A stretch of DNA of 64,000 nucleotides, from positions 9,905 through 73,904 of the forward strand of contig JABDFL010000001.1 of NCBI GenBank assembly GCA_013286575.1, read 5' to 3'. The translations under genes were made by a program, and so were the position numbers. This document shows positions 5,192 through 63,223 of the stretch, one piece after another (the stretch's first letter is position 1; each line of letters begins with the position of its first letter). This DNA is from Candidatus Omnitrophota bacterium (GTDB lineage Bacteria > Omnitrophota > Gorgyraeia > Zapsychrales > Fredricksoniimonadaceae). The notes below the pieces were generated by a model that was given only the letters and a program-made list of their open reading frames with translations, was not told where the DNA came from and did not search any database.

Positions 5192-5216
5192 ATTATACCT
5201 CCGGGAGGTGTAATGG
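5190..5216. repeat. 27-nt near-perfect palindrome (REP-like hairpin) CCATTATACCTCC-G-GGAGGTGTAATGG. It overlaps the 3' end of the RAYT gene.
   Basis: Self-complementary with one mismatch. A second copy lies at 5513-5539. Confidence 0.7.
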
Positions 5217-5714
5217 TGTGGAAGCAGAAGAATAGGGCCACTCTTCAGGCGTTTTTATAATATTTTCTTTAACAGGATTGTAATGCACGTATTGGATCCG
5301 GTTATTCAATCCCTTTATATCCAGAATGATTCGGTTGCCAAATCGATTTTGCCATAATGGTCCCCGCCGATTGTGTCTTAAGTTGAAATAATTGGAATAA
5401 GCATTTAATGTCCTTCGCATAAAGGTTTCAATTCCCTTATTTTCCAATTGTTGAAGTATGAAATGGACGTGGGTGGGCATTAGGCAGAAAGCAATGATGT
5501 TTACTAAAGGGACCATTACACCTCCGGGTGGTGTGATGGCGGTTCTTTTTATTACGTAACTAAAAGGCCTGATATGTCCGTCATATCTGTAGTATTCCAT
5601 TAGCCCCAGCATTCTTTGGTATTCTTCTTTACAACTGAAGATCGTATACCCGTAGATGCTTTTGTTATAAATGTGATGGAATGATTTATTTTCAAAAGGA
5701 CAAAGGCGTTTCAT
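5193..5714 (-). CDS. REP-associated tyrosine transposase (RAYT), of the IS200/IS605 TnpA-like HUH Y1 family.
   Basis: 173 aa. HuH motif MPTHVHFIL. C-terminal block YVHYNPVKENIIKTPEEWPYSS matches the RAYT signature (Y...NPV...WP.SS). Both palindrome copies are translated within the ORF (ITPPGGVMV internally, TPLHLPEV at the C-terminus). Confidence 0.75.
   Translation of the reverse strand: MKRLCPFENKSFHHIYNKSIYGYTIFSCKEEYQRMLGLMEYYRYDGHIRPFSYVIKRTAITPPGGVMVPLVNIIAFCLMPTHVHFILQQLENKGIETFMRRTLNAYSNYFNLRHNRRGPLWQNRFGNRIILDIKGLNNRIQYVHYNPVKENIIKTPEEWPYSSASTPLHLPEV
5513..5539. repeat. Second copy of the REP-like palindrome (CCATTACACCTCC-G-GGTGGTGTGATGG, 2 mismatches), inside the RAYT coding sequence.
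   Basis: Same orientation as the copy at 5190-5216. It encodes an in-frame extra segment upstream of the HuH motif. Confidence 0.7.
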
Positions 5715-11699: not shown

Positions 11700-12845
11700 A
11701 TGCGCTCCATTTATCTAGATCATGCGGCAACTACAGCTTGTGACCCTCGTGTGCTTGAGGCCATGCGGCCTTTCTTTTTCGAGCAAAGCGGAAATGCTTC
11801 AAGCCCACACAGGCAAGGCCGCCAGGCCCGCCGCGCCGTTGAGGAGGCCCGTGAAATATTAGCCGCTTTTATAGGTACCGCACCGGTGGAAATTATTTTT
11901 ACCAGCGGTGCCAGTGAGTCCAATAATCACGCTATTTTTTCGACAGCCAGGGCTTTAAAGACCAAGGGCAAGCATATTATTGCCTCTGCGATCGAGCATC
12001 ATTCAGTATTGGAACCCCTGCATCAACTGGAGCAGGATGGTTTTCAGGTAAGCTATGTTAAGCCCAAGGCGGACGGTATCGTTGCCTTTGAAGATATAAA
12101 GTCTCTGCGGCGGCCAGACACCATCCTTGTCTGCCTTCAGCATGCCAACAATGAAATCGGAACTTTGCAGCCCGTTGAAGAAGCGGGACGCCTATGCCGC
12201 GAGCAAGGCATTTACTTTTTAGTGGATGCTACCCAGACCATCGGGCATATACCTGTGAATGTTAAAGATATCCCCTGTGATTTCCTTTCCCTCTCCGCAC
12301 ATAAATTTTATGGACCCCAGGGAGTAGGTGCTTTATATGTCCGTCAAGGCATTAAATGTCCTGCCTTTATATTAGGCGGCGACCAGGAACGCGGACGCAG
12401 GGCAGGCACACATAATACCACGGGGATCGTCGGTTTGGGAGAGGCCATCAAACTTTGCCGCGCCCAAATGCCGGAAGAAACACAGCAAGAAGTTAAGTTC
12501 CGGGATGAGATCATCGATTTTGTTTTAAAAGAAATTCCCGGCGGCGTTCTTAATGGCCATCCTCAAAAGCGCCTGCCTAACAATGCCCATTTTTCTTTTC
12601 CCGGTATTAATGGTGAGGAACTCGTGAGTGCTTTGGATTTAGCGGGTGTGGCAGTGTCCATGGGTTCCGCCTGCACATGGGGGAAGCTGGAGCCCTCCCA
12701 TGTACTTAAAGCTATGGGGCTGGCAGATCAAATGGCCTTAGGTTCTTTGCGCGTCACCGTCGGCCGTTGGACTGCAAGTCAGGACGTTACATATTTTCTG
12801 GAGCAGTTGAAAATAAAATGCAAGAACGCATCATCCAATTCTTAA
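11700..12845 (+). CDS. iscS: Cysteine desulfurase (class V aminotransferase, IscS/NifS family).
   Basis: 381 aa: IYLDHAATTACDPRVLEAM, SAHKFYGPQGVGALYV (PLP lysine), GSAC active-site Cys. First gene of an operon with birA and bio genes. Confidence 0.8.
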   Translation: MRSIYLDHAATTACDPRVLEAMRPFFFEQSGNASSPHRQGRQARRAVEEAREILAAFIGTAPVEIIFTSGASESNNHAIFSTARALKTKGKHIIASAIEHHSVLEPLHQLEQDGFQVSYVKPKADGIVAFEDIKSLRRPDTILVCLQHANNEIGTLQPVEEAGRLCREQGIYFLVDATQTIGHIPVNVKDIPCDFLSLSAHKFYGPQGVGALYVRQGIKCPAFILGGDQERGRRAGTHNTTGIVGLGEAIKLCRAQMPEETQQEVKFRDEIIDFVLKEIPGGVLNGHPQKRLPNNAHFSFPGINGEELVSALDLAGVAVSMGSACTWGKLEPSHVLKAMGLADQMALGSLRVTVGRWTASQDVTYFLEQLKIKCKNASSNS

Positions 12846-28950: not shown

Positions 28951-29655
28951 ATGCAGAAATTAGAGAAAATATACGAAGGCAAGGCGAAGATCCTTTATAC
29001 GACCGGGGACCCTGACTTGCTCATCCAGTATTTCAAGGATGATGCAACGGCCTTCAATGCCCAGAAGCGAGGTACCATTGTTGAAAAGGGCATCATGAAC
29101 AATGGCATCGCCTCCAAGATCTTTGAGCACCTCAAAGCCAAAGGCATTGAGACCCATTTCGTTGAAAGGTTAAACGACCGCGAGATGTTGGTCAAGCGTG
29201 TCCAAATCGTCCCGCTTGAGATCATTGTCCGCAATCGCGCGGCAGGTTCTTTATGCCGCCTGCTGGGACTGGCTGAAGGGGCCAATTTAGCCTGCCCGAC
29301 GCTGGAATTTTGCTATAAGAATGACGCCTTGGGCGATCCGCAGGTCAATGAATACCATATCCGGGCGTTGAATTTTGCCACTGATGATGAGGTGAAGAAG
29401 ATCACCGCCTTGGCCTTCAAGATCAATGAGGTATTAAAGAAATTCTTTCTGGGTTTAAAGATTGAATTGATCGATTTCAAAATAGAATTCGGCCGCATCA
29501 ACAATCATATTATCCTGGCTGATGAAATCTCTCCTGACACCTGCCGTTTATGGGAAGTCGGTACGGGCAATAAGCTGGACAAAGACCGTTTCCGTCGGGA
29601 TCTGGGTAATATCGAAGAGGCCTATCAGGAAGTATTACGCAGAGTTTCCGCATGA
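28951..29655 (+). CDS. purC: Phosphoribosylaminoimidazole-succinocarboxamide (SAICAR) synthase.
   Basis: 234 aa: YEGKAKILY, LIDFKIEFG. Confidence 0.9.
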   Translation: MQKLEKIYEGKAKILYTTGDPDLLIQYFKDDATAFNAQKRGTIVEKGIMNNGIASKIFEHLKAKGIETHFVERLNDREMLVKRVQIVPLEIIVRNRAAGSLCRLLGLAEGANLACPTLEFCYKNDALGDPQVNEYHIRALNFATDDEVKKITALAFKINEVLKKFFLGLKIELIDFKIEFGRINNHIILADEISPDTCRLWEVGTGNKLDKDRFRRDLGNIEEAYQEVLRRVSA

Positions 29656-32561
29656 TCTGGCGCGTTGAAGTTAAACAAAAAGATGGGATGCTGGATCCCA
29701 TTGGACAATCCATTGCCCGAGACATCATTGATATGGGCTTTGGCATCTCCCAGGTGCGTGTCGTCTCGGTTTTTCTGCTGGAAGGCACCATCAGCCGCGA
29801 GGAAGTCAAGCGCATCGGCGATGAACTCCTGGTTGATCCTATCGTTGAGCAATACAGTTTTGATTTAAAACTCCCCCTGCAGTCAGTTGACCATCATGTC
29901 GTTGAAATAGCTTATAATCCCGGTGTCATGGACCCTGTGGAAGCCTCCACGATCAAGGGCATCCGCGATTTGGGTGTCGCAGGCATCAGTGCTGTGCGCA
30001 CCGCCCGGCAATACCATATTTACGGCAGACTGACAGCCAAAGAATTGGAATCCATCACTGCCCGCGTCTTGATGAATAAACTCATCCAGCACGTGGTAGC
30101 TGACCCTTCCCATGTCCCGACCACACTCAGTATCACGGGTGCATCCGCGTCCAAATTTGATGTGATGATCGTGGATTTGATCGGTGCCAATGATAAAAAA
30201 CTTCTCGAAATTTCCAAGAGCGGCCAGCTCTATTTAAATATTGATGAGATGAAGGCCATCCAGGCCCATTTTAAAAAAGAAAAACGTGATCCGACGGACG
30301 TTGAATTAGAAACCATTGCCCAGACCTGGAGCGAGCATTGCCGCCATAAGACTTTCAGGGGTGTTATCCGTTACCGGGAAGGCAAAAGCGGACGGCCCCA
30401 AATTATCCGCAGCCTTTTTAAAACCACCATTGCTGCCGTTACGTTGAAATTAAAGAAAAAATGGTGCATTTCAGTTTTTCATGACAATGCCGGGGTCATC
30501 GCTTTTGATAAAGATTATCATGTGTGTTTTAAAGTGGAGACCCATAATCATCCCTCAGCCCTGGAGCCTTTTGGCGGGGCCAACACGGGAGTGGGTGGCG
30601 TTATCCGTGATACTTTGGGGACCGGGCTTGCTGCCAAGCCTTTGTGCAATACCGACATATTTTGTTTTGCGCCGCCGGACACACCGGCAGCAGACTTGCC
30701 GCCCGGCACCCTGCATCCCAAGCGGGTCATGAAAGGCGTTGTTTCAGGGGTGCGTGATTACGGCAACAAGATGGGCATCCCGACGGTCAATGGGGCCATT
30801 GTTTTTGATAAACATTTTGCAGGCAATCCGCTGGTTTTTTGCGGCAATATCGGGCTCATCCCCAAAGGTAAAGAAATTAAACGTGTCAGCAGGGGGGATT
30901 TGATCGTGGCTGTGGGCGGACGCACCGGGCGCGACGGCATTCACGGCGCCACGTTTTCTTCGGGAGAGCTGACCAGTGAATCGGAAACAGTTTCTTCAGG
31001 CGCCGTGCAGATCGGCAATCCCATTGAAGAGAAAAAAGTACAGGATGCCCTGCTTAAAGCGCGCGAGGCCAATTTGTATTCTGCCATCACTGATTGCGGC
31101 GCCGGCGGGTTTTCTTCTGCCGTCGGAGAAATGGGCGAAAAGACAGGGGCACGGGTTGATTTGGATAAGGCCCCTCTTAAATATCAGGGCCTTAAATACC
31201 ACGAGATTTGGATTTCAGAATCACAGGAGCGGATGGTGATGTCTGTCCCTCCTCAAAACATCGAAGCCCTTCTTAAGATTTTTGAGGCAGAGAATGTGGA
31301 GGCGAGTGTTTTAGGTGAATTCGACGGCTCCGGCCGCCTGCAACTGTTTTTCCACGGCCAGCAAGTTGCTGACATGGACATGTCCTTTCTCCATGATGGC
31401 CTGCCTCAAATAACCAAGGAAGCTGTTTATCAAAAGCCCAAACTCCGTGTCATTCCCGCGAAAGCAGGAATCCATACAAGATACCGCCCTGGACAGGATT
31501 TAACCGAAAGCTTATGCATGGCCTTAAGCCATTTTAATGTGGCTTCCAAGGAAAGTATTATTCGCATTTATGATCACGAGGTGCAGGGAACAAGCGTTGT
31601 CAAGCCACTGGTAGGGGTTGCCACCGACGGACCATCAGATGCGGCGGTGATCCGCGGGCGTTTGGATTCCAAGCGCGGCATCGCGGTTTCCAACGGCATT
31701 AATGTGCGCTACGGCATGATCGATCCTTTTGGGATGGCTGCTTCCTGCATTGATGAAGCGATCCGTCAAATCATCGCGGTGGGAGGTTCGCTGGATCGCA
31801 TCGCCCTTCTTGATAATTTTTGCTGGGGAAACCCTGATAAGCCCGATCGTCTGGGGTCTTTGGTGCGCTGTGCCCAAGGCTGTTATAAAGCGGCCGTGGC
31901 TTTCGGCACTCCGTTTATTTCGGGGAAAGATAGTTTATATAATGAGTATACCCAAAAAGGTAAAAGCCTCGCGATACCGGGGACCATATTGATCTCCGCC
32001 ATCGGCATCATCGATGATGTGGGAAAAAGCGTCACCATGGATTTTAAAAAGGCGGGGAACAGTATTTATGCGATCGGCACAACCTTTGACGAACTGGGCG
32101 GGTCTGTCTATTTGGAAAATTTAGGGCAGTTGGGGCTTCATGCACCGCAGGTCAATTTTAAGATGGCAGTTAAAACATATAAGGCTGTAGAACGCGCAAC
32201 CAAGGCGGGTTTGATCGCCTCGTTACACGATTGCTCGGAAGGCGGTGCCGCGGTCGCTCTGGCGGAAATGGCCTTTGCCGGCGGATTGGGCGCCACGGTT
32301 TTATCAAAGAAATTGCCCTATAAGGGAAAGCAGGGACGGGAAGATATTTTGCTTTTTTCGGAAAGCAATTCACGCTTCATTGCTGAAGTCTCAGCTGGTC
32401 ATGAAAAAGCGCTGGCAAAGATTTTCAAAGGCGTTCCCATGGCCCGGATCGGCACGGTTGAGGCAAGCCCGGAATTTGTCGTCTACGGTCTTCATGACCA
32501 GCCGGTCATCAATGCCCGTATCGATGAATTAAAAGAAATCTGGAAGGCACCGTTGAGATAA
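29652..32561 (+). CDS. purL: Phosphoribosylformylglycinamidine synthase subunit PurL with an N-terminal PurS-like extension (probable PurS-PurL fusion).
   Basis: 969 aa, against about 740 for a small PurL. The first ~80 aa resemble PurS (VEVKQKDGMLDPIGQSIARDI...). The PurL core starts near WSEHCRHKTF. No separate purS gene is seen between purC and purQ. Confidence 0.8.
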   Translation: MIWRVEVKQKDGMLDPIGQSIARDIIDMGFGISQVRVVSVFLLEGTISREEVKRIGDELLVDPIVEQYSFDLKLPLQSVDHHVVEIAYNPGVMDPVEASTIKGIRDLGVAGISAVRTARQYHIYGRLTAKELESITARVLMNKLIQHVVADPSHVPTTLSITGASASKFDVMIVDLIGANDKKLLEISKSGQLYLNIDEMKAIQAHFKKEKRDPTDVELETIAQTWSEHCRHKTFRGVIRYREGKSGRPQIIRSLFKTTIAAVTLKLKKKWCISVFHDNAGVIAFDKDYHVCFKVETHNHPSALEPFGGANTGVGGVIRDTLGTGLAAKPLCNTDIFCFAPPDTPAADLPPGTLHPKRVMKGVVSGVRDYGNKMGIPTVNGAIVFDKHFAGNPLVFCGNIGLIPKGKEIKRVSRGDLIVAVGGRTGRDGIHGATFSSGELTSESETVSSGAVQIGNPIEEKKVQDALLKAREANLYSAITDCGAGGFSSAVGEMGEKTGARVDLDKAPLKYQGLKYHEIWISESQERMVMSVPPQNIEALLKIFEAENVEASVLGEFDGSGRLQLFFHGQQVADMDMSFLHDGLPQITKEAVYQKPKLRVIPAKAGIHTRYRPGQDLTESLCMALSHFNVASKESIIRIYDHEVQGTSVVKPLVGVATDGPSDAAVIRGRLDSKRGIAVSNGINVRYGMIDPFGMAASCIDEAIRQIIAVGGSLDRIALLDNFCWGNPDKPDRLGSLVRCAQGCYKAAVAFGTPFISGKDSLYNEYTQKGKSLAIPGTILISAIGIIDDVGKSVTMDFKKAGNSIYAIGTTFDELGGSVYLENLGQLGLHAPQVNFKMAVKTYKAVERATKAGLIASLHDCSEGGAAVALAEMAFAGGLGATVLSKKLPYKGKQGREDILLFSESNSRFIAEVSAGHEKALAKIFKGVPMARIGTVEASPEFVVYGLHDQPVINARIDELKEIWKAPLR

Positions 32562-32570
32562 AAATAGAAT

Positions 32571-32600
32571 GTCATCCCCGAATGTTTCTGTCGGGGATCT
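32571..32600. repeat. Hairpin repeat family B (GTCATCCCCGAATGTTTCTGTCGGGGATCT).
   Basis: 8-bp stem TCCCCGA/TCGGGGA. A second copy is at 34147-34177. Confidence 0.6.
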
Positions 32601-32614
32601 AATAAGAGGAGCAT

Positions 32615-33289
32615 ATGACAAAAATAAAAAAACTCGTCACAGTCCCTGATTTGGAAATGATGGAAGACCCCTGGCGCATTTTCCGCATCATGGCGGAATT
32701 TGTCGACGGATTTGAAGAGCTCAAAGACATTGGGCCCGCCGTGAGTATTTTCGGGTCTTCCCGCATCCATACCCTGCATTCCTATTATGACGCGGCAGAG
32801 AAGACCGCGGAATTATTAGTTAAGGCAGGTTATGCGGTGATCACCGGCGGCGGCCCCAGCATCATGGAAGCAGGCAATAAAGGGGCATCCAAGGCAGGCG
32901 GCAAATCCATCGGGCTTAACATTGACCTGCCTTTCGAACAAAAACCAAATGATTATATTAATCATCTGATCAATTTTCATTATTTTTTCTGCCGCAAGGT
33001 CTGTTTTGTCAAATACGCCAAGGCCTTTGTGATTTTTCCCGGCGGCTACGGGACCCTGGATGAATTATCAGAAAGCATCACGCTTATACAGACCCAGCGC
33101 ATGCAGCAATTCCCGGTCATCCTTTACGGAAGCAAGTACTGGAAAGGGCTTTTGGATTGGTTTAAAGGGCCTGTACTCCATGAAGGCTGCATTGATGTCA
33201 AGGATTTGGACATTGTGCAGACAGCGGATAAGCCCGAAGATGTTGTTAAGATCATCAAAAAGTTTTACAGCAAGAAAAAGAAAAAATGA
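32615..33289 (+). CDS. LOG-family protein (TIGR00730; cytokinin riboside 5'-monophosphate phosphoribohydrolase / nucleotide N-glycosidase-like).
   Basis: 224 aa: GGGPSIMEAGNKGA, PGGYGTLDEL. It sits inside the purine operon between purL and purQ. Confidence 0.8.
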   Translation: MTKIKKLVTVPDLEMMEDPWRIFRIMAEFVDGFEELKDIGPAVSIFGSSRIHTLHSYYDAAEKTAELLVKAGYAVITGGGPSIMEAGNKGASKAGGKSIGLNIDLPFEQKPNDYINHLINFHYFFCRKVCFVKYAKAFVIFPGGYGTLDELSESITLIQTQRMQQFPVILYGSKYWKGLLDWFKGPVLHEGCIDVKDLDIVQTADKPEDVVKIIKKFYSKKKKK

Positions 33290-34074
33290 CCCCCAATGTC
33301 AAAGTCATAGTCATTCGCACCGCAGGCACCAATTGCAACGAGGAGACAGCGTTTGCCTTCAGCCGTTTGGGTGCGCATGTGGATCAGGTGCATATCAATG
33401 CTCTGATCGCCGGCACTTTTAAATTAAGCGATTATCATATCCTGGCTTTGCCCGGCGGGTTTAGCTATGGTGATGATATTGCTTCGGGGCGTATTTTGGC
33501 CAATGAATTACGTTTGAAATTGGCAGAGGAGATCAAACAATTTATCCGTGACGGCAAATTAATTATCGGTATATGCAATGGATTCCAGATCCTGGCTAAA
33601 GCCGGTATTTTGCCCGGCCTCGGATGGAAGATTGGACAAGAAACAACGTTGTTCTATAATGATTCTGCCAAATTCGAGGCCCGTTGGGTGCATTTGAAGG
33701 TGGAAAGCCGTTGCGTGTGGACAAAAGGCATGCCCGGCCAGATTTATCTGCCCGTGGCCCACGGCGAGGGAAAATTCATCCCGCGCGAGAAGAAAGTCCT
33801 GGACGCGCTGACAAGTAACGGCCAAATCGTCCTGCGTTATTGCGCTCCTGATGGAAGCAAGCCTGCGTATCCGGAGAATCCCAACGGATCAACCGATGAT
33901 ATCGCCGGCATCTGCGACACCACCGGACGCGTCTTTGGCCTAATGCCGCATCCGGAACGTCATTTTTTATTCGAGCAACACCCATACTGGACACGCTTAA
34001 AGAAAACAAGCGATTTCGGCGACGGAGCCAAGATATTCGAAAACGGCATTAATTACGTGAAGGAAAATTTGTAG
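33286..34074 (+). CDS. purQ: Phosphoribosylformylglycinamidine synthase glutaminase subunit.
   Basis: 262 aa class-I glutamine amidotransferase. GICNGFQ nucleophile Cys and HPE catalytic His/Glu. Confidence 0.85.
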   Translation: MTPNVKVIVIRTAGTNCNEETAFAFSRLGAHVDQVHINALIAGTFKLSDYHILALPGGFSYGDDIASGRILANELRLKLAEEIKQFIRDGKLIIGICNGFQILAKAGILPGLGWKIGQETTLFYNDSAKFEARWVHLKVESRCVWTKGMPGQIYLPVAHGEGKFIPREKKVLDALTSNGQIVLRYCAPDGSKPAYPENPNGSTDDIAGICDTTGRVFGLMPHPERHFLFEQHPYWTRLKKTSDFGDGAKIFENGINYVKENL

Positions 34075-34079
34075 CGCCC

Positions 34080-34120
34080 GTGTCATTGCGAGGAGCCGGA
34101 GGCGACGAAGCAATCTTTTA
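34080..34120. repeat. Hairpin repeat family A (GTGTCATTGCGAGGAGC..GGCGACGAAGCAATCTTTT), copy 1.
   Basis: Begins 6 nt after the purQ stop. There are 5 copies in the window (34080, 34188, 43783, 61928, 63181). Confidence 0.7.
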
Positions 34121-34146
34121 ACACTGTCATTCCTTGGATTTTACAT

Positions 34147-34177
34147 TGTCATTCCCGAATGTTTTTGTCGGGAATCT
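34147..34177. repeat. Hairpin repeat family B copy (GTCATTCCCGAATGTTTTTGTCGGGAATCT).
   Basis: Stem ATTCCCGA/TCGGGAAT. Confidence 0.6.
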
Positions 34178-34187
34178 AGAACAAGTT

Positions 34188-34228
34188 GTGTCATTGCGAG
34201 GAGCTGAAGGCGACGAAGCAATCTTTTT
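34188..34228. repeat. Hairpin repeat family A, copy 2.
   Basis: GTGTCATTGCGAGGAGCTGAAGGCGACGAAGCAATCTTTTT. Confidence 0.7.
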
Positions 34229-34233
34229 AGAAT

Positions 34234-34261
34234 CGTCATCCTGAGCGTAGCGAAGGATCTC
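34234..34261. repeat. Hairpin repeat family C (CGTCATCCTGAGCGTAGCGAAGGATCTC).
   Basis: Only one copy in the window. It shares the GTCAT head with families A and B. Confidence 0.5.
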
Positions 34262-34285
34262 TAAAAGAATGACCTTGTAGCATGA

Positions 34286-34457
34286 ATATGGTTAAACGGT
34301 GTTGTTCCCGAAACGGGATATTTTTGCCGTCTGCTTCGGTTTACATCAAAAATGTTCTAAAGATTCTCTTCATTTGGAACATTTTTGACGTAAATCCTCG
34401 CAGACATTTGGCAAAAAATCCCTGAATGTTTCGTCCACAACACCATTTAACCATATA
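34286..34457. mobile_element. 172-bp imperfect palindrome, a MITE-like element or structured RNA, with 20-bp terminal inverted repeats (ATATGGTTAAACGGTGTTGT / ACAACACCATTTAACCATAT).
   Basis: Terminal arms match 19/20. The internal halves are also mutually complementary (e.g. TTTACATCAAAAATGTTC vs GAACATTTTTGACGTAAA). It lies immediately upstream of the AT-rich defence gene. Confidence 0.5.
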
Positions 34458-34515
34458 CGAGTGATTGCAAGTTAGAAAAGGTCGTTACTTTTAATATCGA
34501 ATTAAGAGGTGCTGT

Positions 34516-36222
34516 ATGAGGGTCACAACTTTTGATAAGGAAGTAAAGGATATTTTTAGCGGTAGTTTTTATCTAATCCCTAGGTTTCAAAGACCATATT
34601 CTTGGGATAGGGAAAATATTGAGGAATTTTGGTGCGATACAATTGCTGAAAGTGAAGGAGATTATTTTATTGGTTCAATCGTCGTTTTTAAAGATTCAAA
34701 AACAGATACATATGGCATTGTCGATGGACAGCAACGCCTAACGACAATAACTATGATTCTATGTGCATTGCGTAATGCTTTTAATGATCAGAATATGCAA
34801 TCTTTAGGGGATGGATTACATAATTTTGTAGAACGTCCTGATATAAATAATAAAAAAAGGTATGTTTTGAAACCAGAAACATCCTACCCATATTTTCAAG
34901 AATATATTCAAAAGAAAACAAAGCCCGACATTGTTCTTACTCCAGGAGTAGAAGAAGAGCTTCTTGAGAAAGCTTTTATGGCTATTTCTAGAAATATTCA
35001 ATCTACTGTCACATCAATTGTAAGTAACCGTTCTTTAAGCGAGAAAAATAAAAAAATTGAAATTGAGAAGAGTTTAATTGGCATTAGAGATAAAATCCTC
35101 AAGCTAAAGTTGATCTTTATCGAGTTGGACAGTGAAGATGATGCGTATATTATTTTTGAAACACTCAACACTCGAGGGAAAGATCTAAAAGTTTCAGATC
35201 TAGTGAAAAATCATATTACTAAACTCTTCAAACCCAAGAATGCGGATGTGGATTTACCAAAAGAACGTTGGAATAAAATAGTGGAATTGATTGACGAATC
35301 TGGGGCACAGCTAGAAGTTGACAACTTTATTCATTATTACTGGTTGTCACGCTATGAATTTGTTACTTTAAAGAAAATATTTAAACAAATAAGAAGGAAA
35401 ATAGATCAAAAAAATGCTGAAGGTTTTTTGAGATCTCTTGAGGAAGATGTCAAGACGTATCGTGAAATAAACGAAACGGTTTATAGGCCTTGGCAGAAAC
35501 AAGATTTAAGAATAAAAGAGTCATTAGATGCTATCAATTTATTTAAAGTAAAACAAGCTATGCCAATGTTGCTATCTGTAATGAGAGAATACAAAAGCGG
35601 AGGAATTCGACTTCCTAACGCAATTGAAACATTTACAAGTATTGAGAACTTTCATTTTGTGTTTACTGCTGTTACATCTCAAAGATCATCTGGAGGCATT
35701 TCATTTATGTATGCAAAAGCTGCTCGTGATCTTTGCGATGCGCCCAACATGAATGAAAAAATTAAGACCCTTAAAGAGTTACAAAGAAAACTTAAAAAAG
35801 GAAGACCGAGCAAAGATGAATTTGTTGCCAGTTTTCAGAATATTTTATATTCTAAGGAATTGTCGAAACAAAAAAAGCTCGTCCAATATATTTTGGCAAG
35901 AATAGCAGAGAAGCAATTTGGCGTGCCTATAGATTATGAAAAGATGACCATTGAACATCTAGCTTCAGAGAATCCTATAGAAGGCACTACAAAAATTCCA
36001 CCACAGTTCATTGCCCAGGTGGGTAATTTAATACTTGTCAATGACGAAACAAATGGAAAATTAAAGAATAAACTTTTTGATCAAAAAAAGAAAATACTTA
36101 TAGATTCGAAGTTGCCTTTGGATAAATGGATAAGTGGAAGTCGCGAATGGAATGTTAAAGAGATTATAAATCGTACTCGTGGCCTGGCTGAATTCGCTTA
36201 TACCAAAGTTTGGGATCTCTAA
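34516..36222 (+). CDS. GmrSD-like type IV (modification-dependent) restriction endonuclease: N-terminal DUF262 (ParB-like NTPase) plus C-terminal DUF1524 (His-Me finger).
   Basis: 568 aa. DUF262 motifs FQRPYSW and DGQQRLTT. DUF1524 motifs IEHLASENP and GNLILVNDETNGKLKNKLFDQKK. The gene is visibly AT-rich compared with the flanking pur genes. Confidence 0.75.
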   Translation: MRVTTFDKEVKDIFSGSFYLIPRFQRPYSWDRENIEEFWCDTIAESEGDYFIGSIVVFKDSKTDTYGIVDGQQRLTTITMILCALRNAFNDQNMQSLGDGLHNFVERPDINNKKRYVLKPETSYPYFQEYIQKKTKPDIVLTPGVEEELLEKAFMAISRNIQSTVTSIVSNRSLSEKNKKIEIEKSLIGIRDKILKLKLIFIELDSEDDAYIIFETLNTRGKDLKVSDLVKNHITKLFKPKNADVDLPKERWNKIVELIDESGAQLEVDNFIHYYWLSRYEFVTLKKIFKQIRRKIDQKNAEGFLRSLEEDVKTYREINETVYRPWQKQDLRIKESLDAINLFKVKQAMPMLLSVMREYKSGGIRLPNAIETFTSIENFHFVFTAVTSQRSSGGISFMYAKAARDLCDAPNMNEKIKTLKELQRKLKKGRPSKDEFVASFQNILYSKELSKQKKLVQYILARIAEKQFGVPIDYEKMTIEHLASENPIEGTTKIPPQFIAQVGNLILVNDETNGKLKNKLFDQKKKILIDSKLPLDKWISGSREWNVKEIINRTRGLAEFAYTKVWDL

Positions 36223-36352
36223 TGTCTATAATTGAGAATTGGGTTCTCATTGAAATTTGTAAAAATAGAGAAATAGCGTCTCATTAGTTTCGACGGGTGG
36301 ATCGGGATTGCGGTAAGGGGTAAATTCATCACTTACAATAGGTGAAACAATT

Positions 36353-37357
36353 ATGACACAAAAGTTGACATATAAAAAAGCAGGCGTGGATATTGCTAAG
36401 GCCAACCGGTTTGTGGATGCGATTAAGCAGATGTCTTCTATTACGATGAATAAAGGTGTGGTTGATCGGCCGGGGTCGTTTGGGGCTTTGTTTGATTTTG
36501 GTTTTTTGAAATATAAGAATCCTGTATTGGTTTCTTCGACTGATGGTGTCGGCACAAAGTTGTTGGTGGCCAATCTGGCGGGGAAGCACGATACGGTGGG
36601 TATTGATCTGGTGGCGATGAATGTTAACGATGTACTGTGCACCGGTGCCAGGCCTTTGTTCTTTTTGGATTACATAGCCACCGGCAAACTTAACCCCCGG
36701 ATCATGAAGGATGTGATGAAAGGCATTGTGGCCGGATGCAAGATGGCCGGATGCGCCCTGATCGGCGGGGAAACCGCGGAAATGCCTGATATGTACAAGG
36801 GCGAGGACTATGATTTAGCGGGCTTTACAGTCGGGGTGGTGGAGAAAGACGGCATTATTGACGGGTCAGGGATTAGATGCGATGATGTGCTCATCGGCCT
36901 GCCGTCTTCGGGGCTGCATTCCAACGGCTATTCGCTGGCCCGTAAGGCTTTAAGTACAAAGGAACAAAAACTTTACGCGCAAATTTTGCTCAAGCCCACC
37001 TGCATTTATGTTAAGCCGGTCTTGGGCCTGCTTGAGAAATTTAAAATCAAAGGCATGGCGCATATGACAGGCGGCGCCTGGTACGAAAAATTGACCAAGG
37101 TCCTGCCTAAAGGATTGTGCTTTTCTGTCAACAAGGGAAGCTGGCCTGTTCCCCGAATATTTGAATTGATCCGGGACAAAGGACACATTCCGGAACATGA
37201 GATGTACCGCACCTTTAATATGGGCATTGGCTTTTGCCTGGTGGTAGAGCCCAAGGATGTTGTCGGGGTCCATGCTTTTTTACGTTCGCAAAAAATAGAG
37301 TCATTTGTCATCGGTGAGGTGACGCAGGATTCGAAGCATAAGGTGATATTTAGATAA
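36353..37357 (+). CDS. purM: Phosphoribosylformylglycinamidine cyclo-ligase (AIR synthase).
   Basis: 334 aa: STDGVGTKL, DLVAMNVNDV. Confidence 0.9.
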   Translation: MTQKLTYKKAGVDIAKANRFVDAIKQMSSITMNKGVVDRPGSFGALFDFGFLKYKNPVLVSSTDGVGTKLLVANLAGKHDTVGIDLVAMNVNDVLCTGARPLFFLDYIATGKLNPRIMKDVMKGIVAGCKMAGCALIGGETAEMPDMYKGEDYDLAGFTVGVVEKDGIIDGSGIRCDDVLIGLPSSGLHSNGYSLARKALSTKEQKLYAQILLKPTCIYVKPVLGLLEKFKIKGMAHMTGGAWYEKLTKVLPKGLCFSVNKGSWPVPRIFELIRDKGHIPEHEMYRTFNMGIGFCLVVEPKDVVGVHAFLRSQKIESFVIGEVTQDSKHKVIFR

Positions 37358-37408: not shown

Positions 37409-38698
37409 ATGAATATTTTAGTGATAGGCTCCGGCGGGCGGGAACATGCGCTGTGCTGGAAAATCAAACAGTCTCCTCAGGTCAAGCGGCTTTATTGCGC
37501 GCCGGGAAACGGCGGCATTGCCCAAATTGCCGAATGCGTGGATATTAAGGTTGATGATGTCCCATTGCTTTTGCAATTTGCCTTGCGCAAACAAATTGAC
37601 CTGACCATTGTCGGCCCTGAAGCCTCTCTGGTTGCCGGTGTGGTGGATGCCTTTGCAGCCAAAGGGTTAAAAATTTTCGGTCCTTCTAAAGCCGCATCCG
37701 CACTTGAAGGCAGCAAGGTTTTCGCCAAAGAATTTATGCACCGCCGCAATATCCCGACAGCTGTATATAAGGTTTTTGATGATGCGCCCAAAGCTCTGGT
37801 TTTTTTAGAAAAAGCCCAGTTTCCTTTGGTCATTAAGGCCGACGGCATTGCTGCCGGCAAAGGCGTTTATGTTTGCGCGGACCTAAAAGAGGCAAAATTG
37901 GCCATCGATGAGATCATGGTCCAAAAAATATTCGGCGCGGCAGGGGACAGGATAGTCATTGAAGAATGCCTGCAAGGCCCGGAAGTATCGGTCCTGGCTG
38001 TCTGCGACGGCAGGCATTTTCTGGTTTTGCCTACAGCGCAGGACTATAAACGTATTTTTGATGATGATCTGGGCCCCAACACCGGCGGCATGGGAACGTT
38101 TTCTCCGAGCCCTTTGGTCACTGCTGAAGTTTTAGACCAGATCATCACCCGGGTCATTGAACCAACCATCCGCGGCATGTATCAGGAAGGGAACCCTTTT
38201 AAGGGCGTTCTTTTTGCGGGATTGATGTTGACTTCCGACGGCCCCAAAGCCCTGGAATTCAATGTGCGCTTCGGCGACCCTGAAACCCAATGCATCCTGC
38301 CGCGCTTGAATGGTGATATTGTGGACATATTCCAGGCGGCCTGCGATGGAGAGCTTAATGCCATAGAAGTCAAATGGGATGAATATTCCTGCGTATGCGT
38401 TGTGATCGCCTCAGGCGGTTACCCGGGAAAATATCAAAATGGATTTCCCATCAACGGCCTGGATAAGATCAAGGATGAAGAAACGGTTGTTTTTCATGCA
38501 GGCACTAAGAACGACGGCGGGGTCTTGGTCACCAATGGCGGCCGTGTCATGGGGATTGCCGCCCTGGGGGAAGGCCTTGAAGCCGCCCGTACAAAAGCGT
38601 ATAATGGCGTCAGTAAATTATCGTTTGACCACATGTTCTTTCGCCGGGACATCGCCAGCAAGATCCTGAAAGAAAAACCTGCTTATGGGCACAACTAA
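37409..38698 (+). CDS. purD: Phosphoribosylamine--glycine ligase.
   Basis: 429 aa ATP-grasp: MNILVIGSGGREHAL, VIKADGIAAGKGV. Confidence 0.9.
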   Translation: MNILVIGSGGREHALCWKIKQSPQVKRLYCAPGNGGIAQIAECVDIKVDDVPLLLQFALRKQIDLTIVGPEASLVAGVVDAFAAKGLKIFGPSKAASALEGSKVFAKEFMHRRNIPTAVYKVFDDAPKALVFLEKAQFPLVIKADGIAAGKGVYVCADLKEAKLAIDEIMVQKIFGAAGDRIVIEECLQGPEVSVLAVCDGRHFLVLPTAQDYKRIFDDDLGPNTGGMGTFSPSPLVTAEVLDQIITRVIEPTIRGMYQEGNPFKGVLFAGLMLTSDGPKALEFNVRFGDPETQCILPRLNGDIVDIFQAACDGELNAIEVKWDEYSCVCVVIASGGYPGKYQNGFPINGLDKIKDEETVVFHAGTKNDGGVLVTNGGRVMGIAALGEGLEAARTKAYNGVSKLSFDHMFFRRDIASKILKEKPAYGHN

Positions 38699-39752
38699 GG
38701 TCCTCAAAGTCAACTCAGCTTTGCCTGAACCGGAAAAAATCGCCGAGGCGGCCCGCATCGTGCGCCAGGGTGGTTTGGTTGTTTTTCCGACGGAGACCGT
38801 CTATGGCATTGCCGCGGATTCCAATAATCCCAAGGCCATGGACCGCCTGCGCGCGGTCAAGAAACGCACGGACGGCAAGCTTTTTTCCATTTTGGTGGCC
38901 CAGCGGGGGATCATTGAGAATTATTCGACCTACACGCACCCGAATTTATACAAGGTGATCGATAAATATTGGCCCGGGCCTTTGACGGTGATCGTGCCGG
39001 CCCGGCACGAAGGGGAAACGATCGGCATACGCATGCCGGACCATACCGTGGCCCTGCGCCTGGTGGAAGAAAGCGGCTGCACCATTGCCGCCCCGTCGGC
39101 AAATTTGGAGGGCAAAAAGCCCCCGAACAATTGCCATGAGGCCCTGGAAGACCTGGATGGCTTGGTCGATTTGGCTTTGGACGGCGGCCCGGTGGATTTC
39201 GGGATTTCTTCAACGATCCTTGATTTCACCCAGACGCACCCGACGGTCACCCGTGACGGCGTCATCACCCAGCCGGACGTGGACCGCACCATCAACAAGA
39301 AATGTGTCTTGTTTGTGTGTACGGGAAACAGCTGCCGCTCGGTCATGGCGGAGTATTTGCTTAAAGCCAAGCTGATCGCCCGTGAAGATGTGGAAGTCCA
39401 CTCGGCGGGCACATCCGTCTATTTTAAGTCGGCAGCAAGCCAGGAGACCATCGCGGTCCTAAGGGAGCGCGGGATCAATGCCGCGGCGCATATTTCCAGG
39501 CCATTGGGCAGCATCATGCTTAAAAAATCAGACCTGATTTTTGCCATGACCCGCGCGCACCGCGCCCAGATCCTGGAGCGTGTTCCGTCGGTGGAAAAAA
39601 GGGTCTATCTCTTAAAGGAATTCGGCAATACCCAGCGGGGCTACGAGGCGGATTTGGATGTGCCAGACCCCATCGGCCAGCCGCATGCGGCCTACCAGGA
39701 ATGCCTGTTGACGATTGATGAAGCCATTGAAAAGATTGAAAGATTGCTTTGA
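38685..39752 (+). CDS. Fusion protein: YrdC/TsaC L-threonylcarbamoyladenylate synthase domain plus a low-molecular-weight protein phosphatase (LMW-PTP / YwlE-like) domain.
   Basis: N-terminal part: VVFPTETVYGIAAD...SANLEG (YrdC fold). C-terminal part: VLFVCTGNSCRSVMAEY (CX5R P-loop) ... DPIG. The neighbourhood mirrors B. subtilis ywlC-ywlE-ywlF(rpiB)-glyA. Confidence 0.75.
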   Translation: MGTTKVLKVNSALPEPEKIAEAARIVRQGGLVVFPTETVYGIAADSNNPKAMDRLRAVKKRTDGKLFSILVAQRGIIENYSTYTHPNLYKVIDKYWPGPLTVIVPARHEGETIGIRMPDHTVALRLVEESGCTIAAPSANLEGKKPPNNCHEALEDLDGLVDLALDGGPVDFGISSTILDFTQTHPTVTRDGVITQPDVDRTINKKCVLFVCTGNSCRSVMAEYLLKAKLIAREDVEVHSAGTSVYFKSAASQETIAVLRERGINAAAHISRPLGSIMLKKSDLIFAMTRAHRAQILERVPSVEKRVYLLKEFGNTQRGYEADLDVPDPIGQPHAAYQECLLTIDEAIEKIERLL

Positions 39753-63180: not shown

Positions 63181-63223
63181 GTGTCATTGCGAGGAGGCGT
63201 AGCCGACGAAGCAATCTTTTTAC
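63181..63223. repeat. Hairpin repeat family A, copy 5 (GTGTCATTGCGAGGAGGCGTAGCCGACGAAGCAATCTTTTTAC), just after the mnmE stop.
   Basis: Same head and tail as the other copies; the central segment is variable. Confidence 0.7.

What the first reader, a model, noticed from the sequence alone, without database searches (positions are those of the whole stretch)
34516..36222. AT-rich GmrSD-like (DUF262/DUF1524) defence gene inserted in the purine operon between purQ and purM
The pur genes are otherwise contiguous (purB-purC-purSL-LOG-purQ ... purM-purD). Between purQ and purM sits a 568-aa ORF with an N-terminal DUF262 (FQRPYSW, DGQQRLTT) and a C-terminal DUF1524 His-Me finger (IEHL...P, GNLxL.N...N...NK.F..K). 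This is the architecture of GmrSD, BrxU and SspE-type modification-dependent nucleases. The gene is conspicuously A/T-rich relative to its neighbours and is preceded by the repeat cluster and the MITE-like palindrome. Together these point to a horizontally acquired single-gene defence island in a housekeeping operon. The adjacent repeats may mark a recurrent insertion site. Other alleles of this hotspot may carry different, possibly novel, defence cargo.
Basis: partly seen in the sequence, partly recalled or inferred. Interest (0 to 1): 0.7.

Follow-up and report, generated by a model that had tools for sequence, protein, structure and literature searches.

The report
Foreign GmrSD-type nuclease in purine operon
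An intact, horizontally acquired single-gene defence nuclease of the well-known GmrSD family sits between purQ and purM of an uncultured Omnitrophota bacterium, at a spot where related genomes carry nothing or quite different small mobile genes; this is a clear but ordinary defence hotspot.

Summary
ORF 34516-36222 (+, 568 aa) has GmrSD_N/DUF262 (2.7e-39) and GmrSD_C/DUF1524 (2.6e-17). The DGQQR NTPase motif and the E/D-H-N-N His-Me nuclease motif are intact. The gene is the strongest compositional outlier in the window: GC 0.33, GC3 0.27, z about -6 against 53 other ORFs. It lies in a 2,278-bp insert between purQ and purM.

In 10 related Omnitrophota genomes purQ and purM overlap or lie at most 41 nt apart. 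Six others carry different low-GC cargo at exactly this junction: GIY-YIG, Phd/ParE, a SoFic-like Fic protein, and unknown ORFs. None carries this gene. No other junction in the operon varies like this.

The protein belongs to the PADLOC 'Orf5'(=DndI)/HEC-06 branch. The closest solved structure is DndI (TM 0.56, 19% identity). About 20 separate contexts of relatives, judged from their nearest genes, show a solitary gene with no dnd or ssp genes listed beside it. One relative is embedded in a BREX locus, as BrxU is.

Best reading: a stand-alone NTP-dependent defence nuclease, probably type IV-like. Its substrate specificity is not shown. It is a new member of a known kind, of modest interest.

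The parts
33286..34074 (+). purQ (FGAM synthase glutaminase subunit). It forms the left border of the variable site.
   Evidence: GATase_5 hit at 6.7e-82. In relatives with an empty site, its stop codon overlaps or nearly abuts the purM start.
34075..36352 (+). The whole 2,278-bp insert between purQ and purM, GC 0.351.
   Evidence: The same junction is -4 to +41 nt in L003, L004, L007, L009, L012-15, L019 and L020.
34080..34261 (+). Cluster of REP-like short hairpin repeats. It has two 40-nt copies (34080-34119, 34188-34227) and hairpins at 34148-34176 and 34235-34261.
   Evidence: Further copies lie at 32571-32599 and 63183-63216. The first repeat is shared with L002 directly after purQ.
34286..34456 (.). 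MITE-like imperfect palindrome with nested arms of 29 and 33 nt. It occurs once in the window.
   Evidence: (the spacer folds with z = -8).
34504..34511 (+). Shine-Dalgarno sequence AAGAGGTG of the nuclease gene.
   Evidence: Read directly from the sequence.
34516..36222 (+). GmrSD-family gene (568 aa) of the PADLOC 'Orf5'/HEC-06 branch.
34543..35217 (+). DUF262 / GmrSD_N (ParB-like NTPase) domain, aa 10-234. The DGQQR motif is at 34723-34737.
   Evidence: DGQQR is invariant in the 32-sequence family alignment. The motif's role follows Machnicka 2015 and the HEC-06/BrxU mutants.
35806..36192 (+). DUF1524 / GmrSD_C His-Me finger nuclease domain, aa 431-559. E480-H481 lie at 35953-35958, followed by N504 and N513.
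   Evidence: E480, H481, N504 and N513 are invariant. The E/D-H-N-N motif is described. The model shows a beta-beta-alpha element at aa 478-516.
36223..36352 (+). Downstream spacer, GC 0.36. It has no intrinsic terminator and no significant structure, and it carries the purM ribosome-binding site.
36353..37357 (+). purM (AIR synthase). It forms the right border of the variable site.
   Evidence: AIRS and AIRS_C hits.

Best explanation
The ORF is an intact, horizontally acquired, single-gene defence nuclease of the GmrSD family. It has an N-terminal DUF262 ParB-like NTPase and a C-terminal DUF1524 His-Me finger nuclease, and it belongs to the branch that PADLOC labels 'Orf5'/HEC-06.

It occupies a recurrently used variable site between purQ and purM in an uncultured Candidatus Omnitrophota genome. 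In the ancestral arrangement these two genes were adjacent or overlapping.

The mechanism is inferred from characterised relatives (BrxU, Eco94GmrSD, HEC-06). NTP binding and hydrolysis at the DGQQR site would drive a conformational or oligomeric cycle. That cycle would license the E480/H481/N504/N513 site to nick or cut invading DNA.

The gene works alone, without a partner gene beside it. The most likely target is phage DNA that differs from host DNA by base modification, which would make it type IV-like. The target specificity is not shown.

Shown here: the domains, the intact motifs, purifying selection, foreign composition, absence from all relatives at this site, hotspot behaviour, a solitary context for the family, and BREX embedding of one close family member.

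Inferred: defence function in this organism, NTP dependence, substrate, and read-through transcription into purM.
For: Domains and motifs. The protein is full length against more than 100 homologues at 100% coverage.

Structure: the AlphaFold model has pLDDT 88.8. The only significant PDB fold matches are DndI, SspE and BrxU.

Selection: dN/dS is 0.07 against the 77%-identical homologue in L001.

Foreign origin: GC, GC3 and RSCU z-scores are -6.0, -5.5 and -4.7. The gene's GC is lower than its flanks in all 27 loci of relatives where flanks could be measured. Homologues occur on 229 plasmid records.

Hotspot: the purQ|purM gap is 2,278 bp here. It is -4 to +41 nt in 10 relatives. It is 615-3,070 bp, with different cargo, in 6 relatives. 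All other operon junctions are 260 nt or less, apart from a clade-specific gap of about 500 nt at purD|sua5.

Stand-alone status: both neighbours are pur genes, and no DndB-E or SspB-D hit appears in the 64-kb window. Relatives sit alone among housekeeping genes.

Defence role of the subfamily: in L111 a 44%-identical member with the same PADLOC profile ranking lies between pglX and pglZ of a BREX locus. HEC-06, whose HMM matches full length at 3.6e-99, protects E. coli as a single gene and needs the DGQQR and EH residues.
Against: No experiment exists on this protein or on a close relative; the nearest tested proteins share well under 40% identity.

The closest solved structure is DndI, not BrxU, and the strongest PADLOC profile carries the DndI ('Orf5') label. 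DndI restricts unmodified DNA and needs phosphorothioation for self-protection. A type IV-like specificity therefore cannot be read from homology.

Only 64 kb of the genome was available, so a distant modification module cannot be excluded.

No promoter of its own is convincingly predicted.
Confidence: 0.75

Rival explanations
1. It is the restriction component of a phosphorothioate-based system, like DndI or SspE. The dnd or ssp modification genes would lie elsewhere in the genome. The nuclease would attack DNA lacking phosphorothioate (DndI mode) or be switched on by host phosphorothioate (SspE mode).
For: The best PADLOC profile is 'Orf5' (2e-141), and Orf5 is the old name of DndI. DndI (9JFL) is the only PDB hit by sequence (1.6e-14; 5e-31 with the profile) and the best by fold (TM 0.56-0.58). 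SspE comes next. A cysteine desulfurase matching DndA/SspA lies at 11700-12845.
Against: Identity to DndI is only 19%. No DndB-E or SspB-D hit appears in the 64-kb window. The desulfurase looks like housekeeping IscS/NifS: it sits beside tRNA genes, and MnmA is in the same window. No dnd or ssp gene was listed next to relatives in the neighbourhoods checked. One relative is embedded in BREX instead. HEC-06 works in E. coli without phosphorothioation. DndI is toxic without phosphorothioate, which fits poorly with a gene that moves alone. The phosphorothioate-sensing Tyr25 of DndI aligns with an invariant Phe24 here.
Confidence: 0.12
2. It is a selfish or addictive nuclease gene, or a non-defence DNA-processing enzyme. 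It would persist in the hotspot like the GIY-YIG and toxin-antitoxin cargo of other alleles, with no benefit against phages.
For: Other alleles of the same site carry GIY-YIG nucleases and a Phd/ParE pair, which are typical selfish cargo. No direct evidence of defence exists in this organism.
Against: Purifying selection is strong (dN/dS 0.07). The same subfamily is embedded in BREX. HEC-06 and BrxU are experimentally protective. No antitoxin-like partner ORF lies in the insert.
Confidence: 0.08
3. It is an old resident gene of the pur operon, and its AT-richness only reflects its amino-acid composition.
For: The protein is rich in FYMINK residues (0.36 against 0.28). The family has lower GC than its hosts everywhere.
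Against: GC3 is 0.27 against 0.57, so synonymous sites differ too. None of 17 relatives with a readable junction has the gene there. The nearest relative, L002 (PurQ 90%), carries different cargo.
Confidence: 0.02

Closest known systems
HEC-06 (Hma-embedded GmrSD-like single-gene defence; Payne et al. 2024 preprint, doi 10.1101/2024.01.29.577857)
   Same: It has the same two-domain architecture and a similar length. The HEC-06 HMMs match full length (PDLC04157: aa 10-567 against profile positions 14-556 of 558, E 3.6e-99). DGQQR and the E-H nuclease dyad are present; these are the residues whose mutation abolishes HEC-06 defence. It acts as a single gene.
   Different: The gene here is not embedded in an Hma system; it sits in a housekeeping operon. 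A different PADLOC profile ('Orf5' PDLC02699) scores higher.
DndI (= Orf5) of Salmonella enterica Cerro 87, PDB 9JFL
   Same: It is the closest solved structure by sequence and by fold. It also combines DUF262 with DGQQR and a DUF1524 nuclease.
   Different: Identity is 19%. DndI is co-transcribed with dndFGH next to dndBCDE and is toxic without phosphorothioation. Here there are no dnd genes in 64 kb, and none was listed beside the relatives. Tyr25 of DndI corresponds to Phe24 here.
BrxU (GmrSD-family type IV enzyme in the BREX island of pEFER, PDB 7P9K)
   Same: It has the same domain pair and the same D/E-H nuclease and DGQQR motifs. A 44%-identical relative of the window protein lies between pglX and pglZ of a BREX locus, as BrxU does.
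   Different: Identity is 12% and the whole-chain TM-score is 0.33. The RLFDS nucleotide-binding motif of BrxU is not seen in the sequence.
GmrSD / Eco94GmrSD (type IV restriction of glucosyl-hmC DNA)
   Same: The Pfam families are named after it, and the (I/V)(I/V)DGQQRLTT and E/D-H-N-N motifs match. It is a single-chain, stand-alone enzyme that is often transferred horizontally.
   Different: The match to PADLOC's type IV profile mREase_IV is weak (3.7e-19, local). The substrate is unknown.
Defence hotspots between conserved core genes (a general concept; own knowledge)
   Same: Conserved flanking genes enclose alternative, low-GC, small defence, toxin-antitoxin or selfish cargo in different genomes, alongside empty alleles.
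   Different: The site lies inside a biosynthetic operon, between two genes that otherwise overlap or nearly abut. No integrase, tRNA or target-site duplication is present.

Membership tests
GmrSD family (DUF262 + DUF1524) | N-terminal DUF262/GmrSD_N domain above Pfam's gathering score | tested here: met
   PF03235 scores 135.8 bits against a cut-off of 33.2, over aa 10-234.
GmrSD family (DUF262 + DUF1524) | C-terminal DUF1524/GmrSD_C His-Me finger domain above the gathering score | tested here: met
   PF07510 scores 63.4 bits against a cut-off of 23, over aa 431-559.
GmrSD family (DUF262 + DUF1524) | (I/V)(I/V)DGQQRLTT NTPase motif and E/D-H-N-N nuclease motif (Machnicka 2015) | tested here: met
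   IVDGQQRLTT lies at aa 68-77. E480, H481, N504 and N513 are invariant in alignment A1.
GmrSD family (DUF262 + DUF1524) | Fold similar to solved family members | tested here: met
   The only Foldseek PDB hits with E < 1e-3 are DndI, SspE and BrxU. The model has pLDDT 88.8.
Type IV (modification-dependent) restriction enzyme | Cleaves modified DNA (hmC, glc-hmC, 5mC and others) but not unmodified DNA | not testable with these tools
   This needs nuclease assays or phage plating.
Type IV (modification-dependent) restriction enzyme | Stand-alone, with no cognate methyltransferase or modification gene adjacent | tested here: met
   Both neighbours are pur genes. Relatives are solitary.
DndI (phosphorothioate-dependent restriction) | Genetic linkage to dndBCDE (with or without dndFGH) | tested here: not met
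   No DndB-E hit appears in the 64-kb window; only an IscS-like DndA/SspA hit at 11700-12845. No dnd gene was listed in the neighbourhoods of relatives. The rest of the genome was not seen.
DndI (phosphorothioate-dependent restriction) | Phosphorothioate-sensing Tyr25 in the N-terminal hydrophobic patch | tested here: inconclusive
   It aligns with Phe24, which is invariant in this subfamily. The position stays hydrophobic but the Tyr hydroxyl is absent.
SspE | Protein of about 770 aa, linked to sspABCD | tested here: not met
   The protein is 568 aa. Only the N-terminal 70 or so residues match the SspE profiles and PDB 6JIV. No SspB-D hit appears in the window.
BrxU | Embedded in a BREX locus | tested here: not met
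   Not in this window. It is met by the 44%-identical relative in L111.
HEC-06 | Full-length match to the HEC-06 profiles, with DGQQR and the E-H dyad conserved | tested here: met
   PDLC04157 3.6e-99, PDLC04154 1e-86 and PDLC04155 5.4e-86, all full length.
HEC-06 | Embedded in an Hma (helicase-methylase-ATPase) system | tested here: not met
   The flanks are purQ and purM.

The most novel reading that the evidence does not exclude
The purQ|purM junction of this Omnitrophota lineage may be a specifically targeted integration site with an unknown capture mechanism. It has no integrase, tRNA or target-site duplication, and it repeatedly accumulates REP/MITE-like palindromes and GIY-YIG genes. 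The unannotated low-GC cargo ORFs found there in other genomes may include new defence genes. These are the L002 168-aa, L010 164-aa and L018 197-aa ORFs, none of which has a significant Pfam or PADLOC hit. Separately, this solitary 'Orf5'/HEC-06 branch might discriminate self from non-self in a way that is neither type IV nor phosphorothioate-dependent.
Probability: 0.2. Interest if true: 0.55.

Novelty: new member of a known kind. Interest (0 to 1): 0.3.

Why it matters
This is a clean, well-bounded case of a defence gene dropped between two biosynthetic genes that normally overlap or nearly abut. It comes from a poorly studied, uncultured phylum, Omnitrophota. The comparison set includes empty sites and six alternative cargoes.

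It shows that the 'Orf5'/HEC-06 branch of GmrSD-like nucleases is usually solitary. A PADLOC 'Orf5' label on this branch therefore should not be read as Dnd-linked.

The junction could also be mined in metagenomes for small uncharacterised cargo genes.

It does not change what is known about GmrSD-type enzymes or defence hotspots.

Tried and rejected
- Exact look-up of the window protein's contig found nothing on record. The DNA of the 86%-identical homologue P0002 could not be fetched. The cluster look-up gave no organism names.
- Rfam on the insert and on the whole window found no riboswitch or other RNA family in the spacers, only two tRNAs 23 kb away.
- NCBIfam has no model that matches.
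- Local alignment of the upstream and downstream spacers, direct and inverted, scored below shuffled controls. There are therefore no terminal repeats, no target-site duplication and no sign of a transposon.
- No plausible partner ORF lies in the spacers. The only ORFs there are short and lie in or across the repeats and the palindrome.
- No intrinsic terminator follows the gene, and the promoter scan is no better than shuffles.
- GIY-YIG and the other cargo proteins of relatives are absent from the window.
- The metagenome scan with the protein returned only relatives of 41-55% identity, none in a pur operon.
- Phage records hold only distant homologues of about 25% identity.
- The hypothesis of an old resident gene was rejected.

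Full report
**Observation**

The ORF is at exactly the stated coordinates: 34516-36222, + strand, 568 aa, starting at ATG. A strong Shine-Dalgarno sequence, AAGAGGTG, lies at 34504-34511 (sequence). Pfam places GmrSD_N/DUF262 at aa 10-234 (E 2.7e-39, 135.8 bits) and GmrSD_C/DUF1524 at aa 431-559 (E 2.6e-17).

They are purB, purC, a purS-purL fusion, a LOG/SLOG-family gene and purQ (33286-34074), then 2,278 bp, then purM (36353-37357), purD and a Sua5-LMWPc fusion.

The 441-nt upstream spacer holds two 40-nt REP-like repeats, two further short hairpins and a 171-nt imperfect palindrome at 34286-34456. It folds far better than shuffled sequence, with z = -8.

**Composition**

Sliding GC falls from about 0.50 to 0.32-0.34 across the gene. 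I compared the ORF with 53 other non-overlapping ORFs of the window:

| Measure | This ORF | Other ORFs | z |
|---|---|---|---|
| GC | 0.334 | 0.490 ± 0.026 | -6.0 |
| GC3 | 0.269 | 0.565 ± 0.054 | -5.5 |
| RSCU correlation with pooled genes | -0.09 | 0.71 | -4.7 |

Synonymous sites differ as well, so amino-acid composition alone cannot explain the AT-richness.

**Organism and the state of the site in relatives**

A scan of one genome per species with PurQ returned Candidatus Omnitrophota MAGs. The best hit, L002, has 90% PurQ identity and 96% PurB identity.

I mapped all operon genes in L002-L020 and measured every junction.

- purQ and purM overlap (ATGA) or lie at most 41 nt apart in L003, L004, L007, L009, L012, L013, L014, L015, L019 and L020. 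Two more genomes have only short non-coding spacers there: 157 nt in L008 and 98 nt in L017.
- The gap is 615-3,070 bp in L002, L005, L010, L011, L016 and L018.
- Every other junction stays at 260 nt or less, apart from a clade-specific spacer of about 500 nt at purD|sua5.

The filled alleles are low in GC relative to their flanks. Their cargo differs from genome to genome:

| Locus | Cargo at purQ\|purM |
|---|---|
| L002 | 168-aa ORF of unknown family |
| L005 | GIY-YIG |
| L010 | GIY-YIG plus a 164-aa unknown ORF |
| L011 | Phd/ParE pair |
| L016 | Fic protein matching the SoFic defence profile (1.5e-34) |
| L018 | Four-ORF block: a PDC-S09-like protein, a 197-aa ORF with only sub-threshold Pfam hits, an HSDR_N protein and an AP_endonuc_2 TIM-barrel protein |

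No relative has the GmrSD-like gene here. Occupied and empty alleles are interleaved along the PurQ identity ranking, so the site has gained and lost cargo repeatedly. In a more distant clade (L021-L027) purF sits at this position. That is ordinary operon variation.

It fails on both counts, and the hotspot idea is supported.

**How the insert got there is not resolved**

- The spacers on the two sides share no direct or inverted repeat above shuffled controls.
- No tRNA lies nearby, and the insert contains no integrase or transposase.
- Only the first REP-like repeat, immediately after purQ, is shared with L002. L002 has its own palindromic elements and different cargo.
- L008 has only a 160-nt perfect palindrome at the junction.

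A reasonable inference is exchange of alleles by homologous recombination through the conserved pur flanks. REP/MITE-like elements would accumulate because the spacer tolerates them.

No terminator-like site follows the gene, and the downstream spacer is unstructured. Read-through into purM is therefore plausible but untested.

**What the protein is**

More than 100 full-length homologues of 49-86% identity exist, and 3,494 hits passed E ≤ 1e-3. A 32-sequence alignment shows invariant D70-G71-Q72-Q73-R74, E480-H481, G503-N504-L505 and N513. These are the (I/V)(I/V)DGQQRLTT and E/D-H-N-N motifs that define GmrSD proteins. dN/dS against the 77%-identical homologue in L001 is 0.07, with dS near saturation. 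The gene is therefore intact and has been under purifying selection.

PADLOC's best profiles are 'Orf5' PDLC02699 (2e-141) and HEC-06 (3.6e-99, full length). SspE and the type IV profile mREase_IV match only locally. 'Orf5' is the former name of DndI from the Salmonella Cerro 87 dnd cluster.

DndI (9JFL) is the only PDB hit by sequence, at 1.6e-14, or 5e-31 with the family profile. The AlphaFold model has pLDDT 88.8. Its best fold match is DndI (TM 0.56-0.58, 19% identity), then SspE, then BrxU (TM 0.33, 12% identity).

**Which mode of action**

The architecture covers at least three documented modes:

- type IV restriction of modified DNA, as in GmrSD and BrxU;
- phosphorothioate-activated SspE;
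- DndI, which nicks DNA lacking phosphorothioate and is toxic without dndBCDE.

HEC-06 protects E. coli as a single gene in a restriction-free K-12 host and needs the DGQQR and E-H residues.

Several observations argue against a phosphorothioate-dependent role here.

- The window has no DndB-E or SspB-D hit.
- The only related hit is a cysteine desulfurase at 11700-12845. It lies beside tRNA genes and looks like a housekeeping enzyme.
- In about 20 separate contexts of relatives (41-77% identity in metagenome and assembly contigs, 38-39% on plasmids) the nearest genes are unrelated housekeeping genes. No dnd or ssp gene was listed.
- One 44%-identical member with the same PADLOC ranking is embedded as brxC-pglX-[gene]-pglZ-brxL, which is the position BrxU occupies.
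- DndI's phosphorothioate-sensing Tyr25 aligns with an invariant Phe here.
- A gene that is toxic without its modification partner is a poor candidate for moving alone, and this family clearly moves. Its GC is below that of its flanks in all 27 measurable loci, and 229 plasmid records hold homologues.

I therefore favour a stand-alone, NTP-driven nuclease that acts on foreign DNA and is probably type IV-like. The specificity is inferred, not shown. The phosphorothioate-dependent rival gets about 0.12.

**Verdict**

Two caveats remain. 'Modification-dependent' is unproven, because the nearest solved relative is DndI. The repeats do not bound the insert.

This is a new member of a known kind, lying in a clear but conventional core-gene-flanked hotspot. 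Two points are mildly unusual. The hotspot splits an otherwise overlapping or nearly abutting gene pair inside a biosynthetic operon of an uncultured phylum. Several alternative cargo ORFs have no recognisable family.

Interest is 0.3.

Noticed in passing
window 5193-5714 (-): This is the only other low-GC ORF in the window (GC 0.39, GC3 0.41). It has a weak IS200-like Y1 transposase hit (PF01797, 7.9e-06). It may be a REP-associated tyrosine transposase for the REP-like hairpins.
   Followed up: no
window 32571-32599 and 63183-63216: Further copies of the REP-like hairpin repeats seen in the purQ-purM spacer. One lies in the purSL|LOG spacer.
   Followed up: partly
window 32615-33289 and 29652-32561: A LOG/SLOG-family gene (Lysine_decarbox) sits inside the purine operon between purL and purQ. 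It is conserved at that position in most mapped relatives of the clade. purS is fused to purL, giving a 969-aa protein.
   Followed up: partly
L002:9077-9583, L010:9240-9734, L018:9578-10171: Low-GC cargo ORFs at the same purQ|purM junction in other genomes. None has a significant Pfam or PADLOC match, so they are candidates for uncharacterised defence or selfish genes.
   Followed up: partly
L005:9067-9387 and L010:8923-9207: Small GIY-YIG nuclease genes, 70% identical to each other, occupy the same junction in two different genomes. This is consistent with homing-like behaviour.
   Followed up: partly
L016:1248-2291: A Fic protein matching the SoFic single-gene defence profile (1.5e-34) occupies the same junction.
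   Followed up: partly
L008:8787-8946 and the end of L006: L008 has only a 160-nt near-perfect palindrome between purQ and purM. The L006 contig ends right after purQ, possibly an assembly break at repeats.
   Followed up: no
L111:77-12395: A 44%-identical member of the same subfamily is embedded in a type 1 BREX locus in the order brxC-pglX-[gene]-pglZ-brxL.
   Followed up: yes
L085:9237-10562 (also L086, L087) and L001:2386-3963: Some relatives are followed directly by other defence-like genes. One is a TIR_2 + Methyltransf_19 fusion (PADLOC PDC-S66, 6e-13). The other is an HATPase_c_3 protein next to the 77%-identical homologue. The L001 contig is itself low in GC (0.34), close to the composition of the window gene.
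   Followed up: partly
window 38685-39752: A Sua5/YciO/YrdC domain fused to a low-molecular-weight phosphotyrosine phosphatase. It overlaps the end of purD by 14 nt, has the highest GC3 in the window (0.70), and is conserved downstream of purD in relatives.
   Followed up: no
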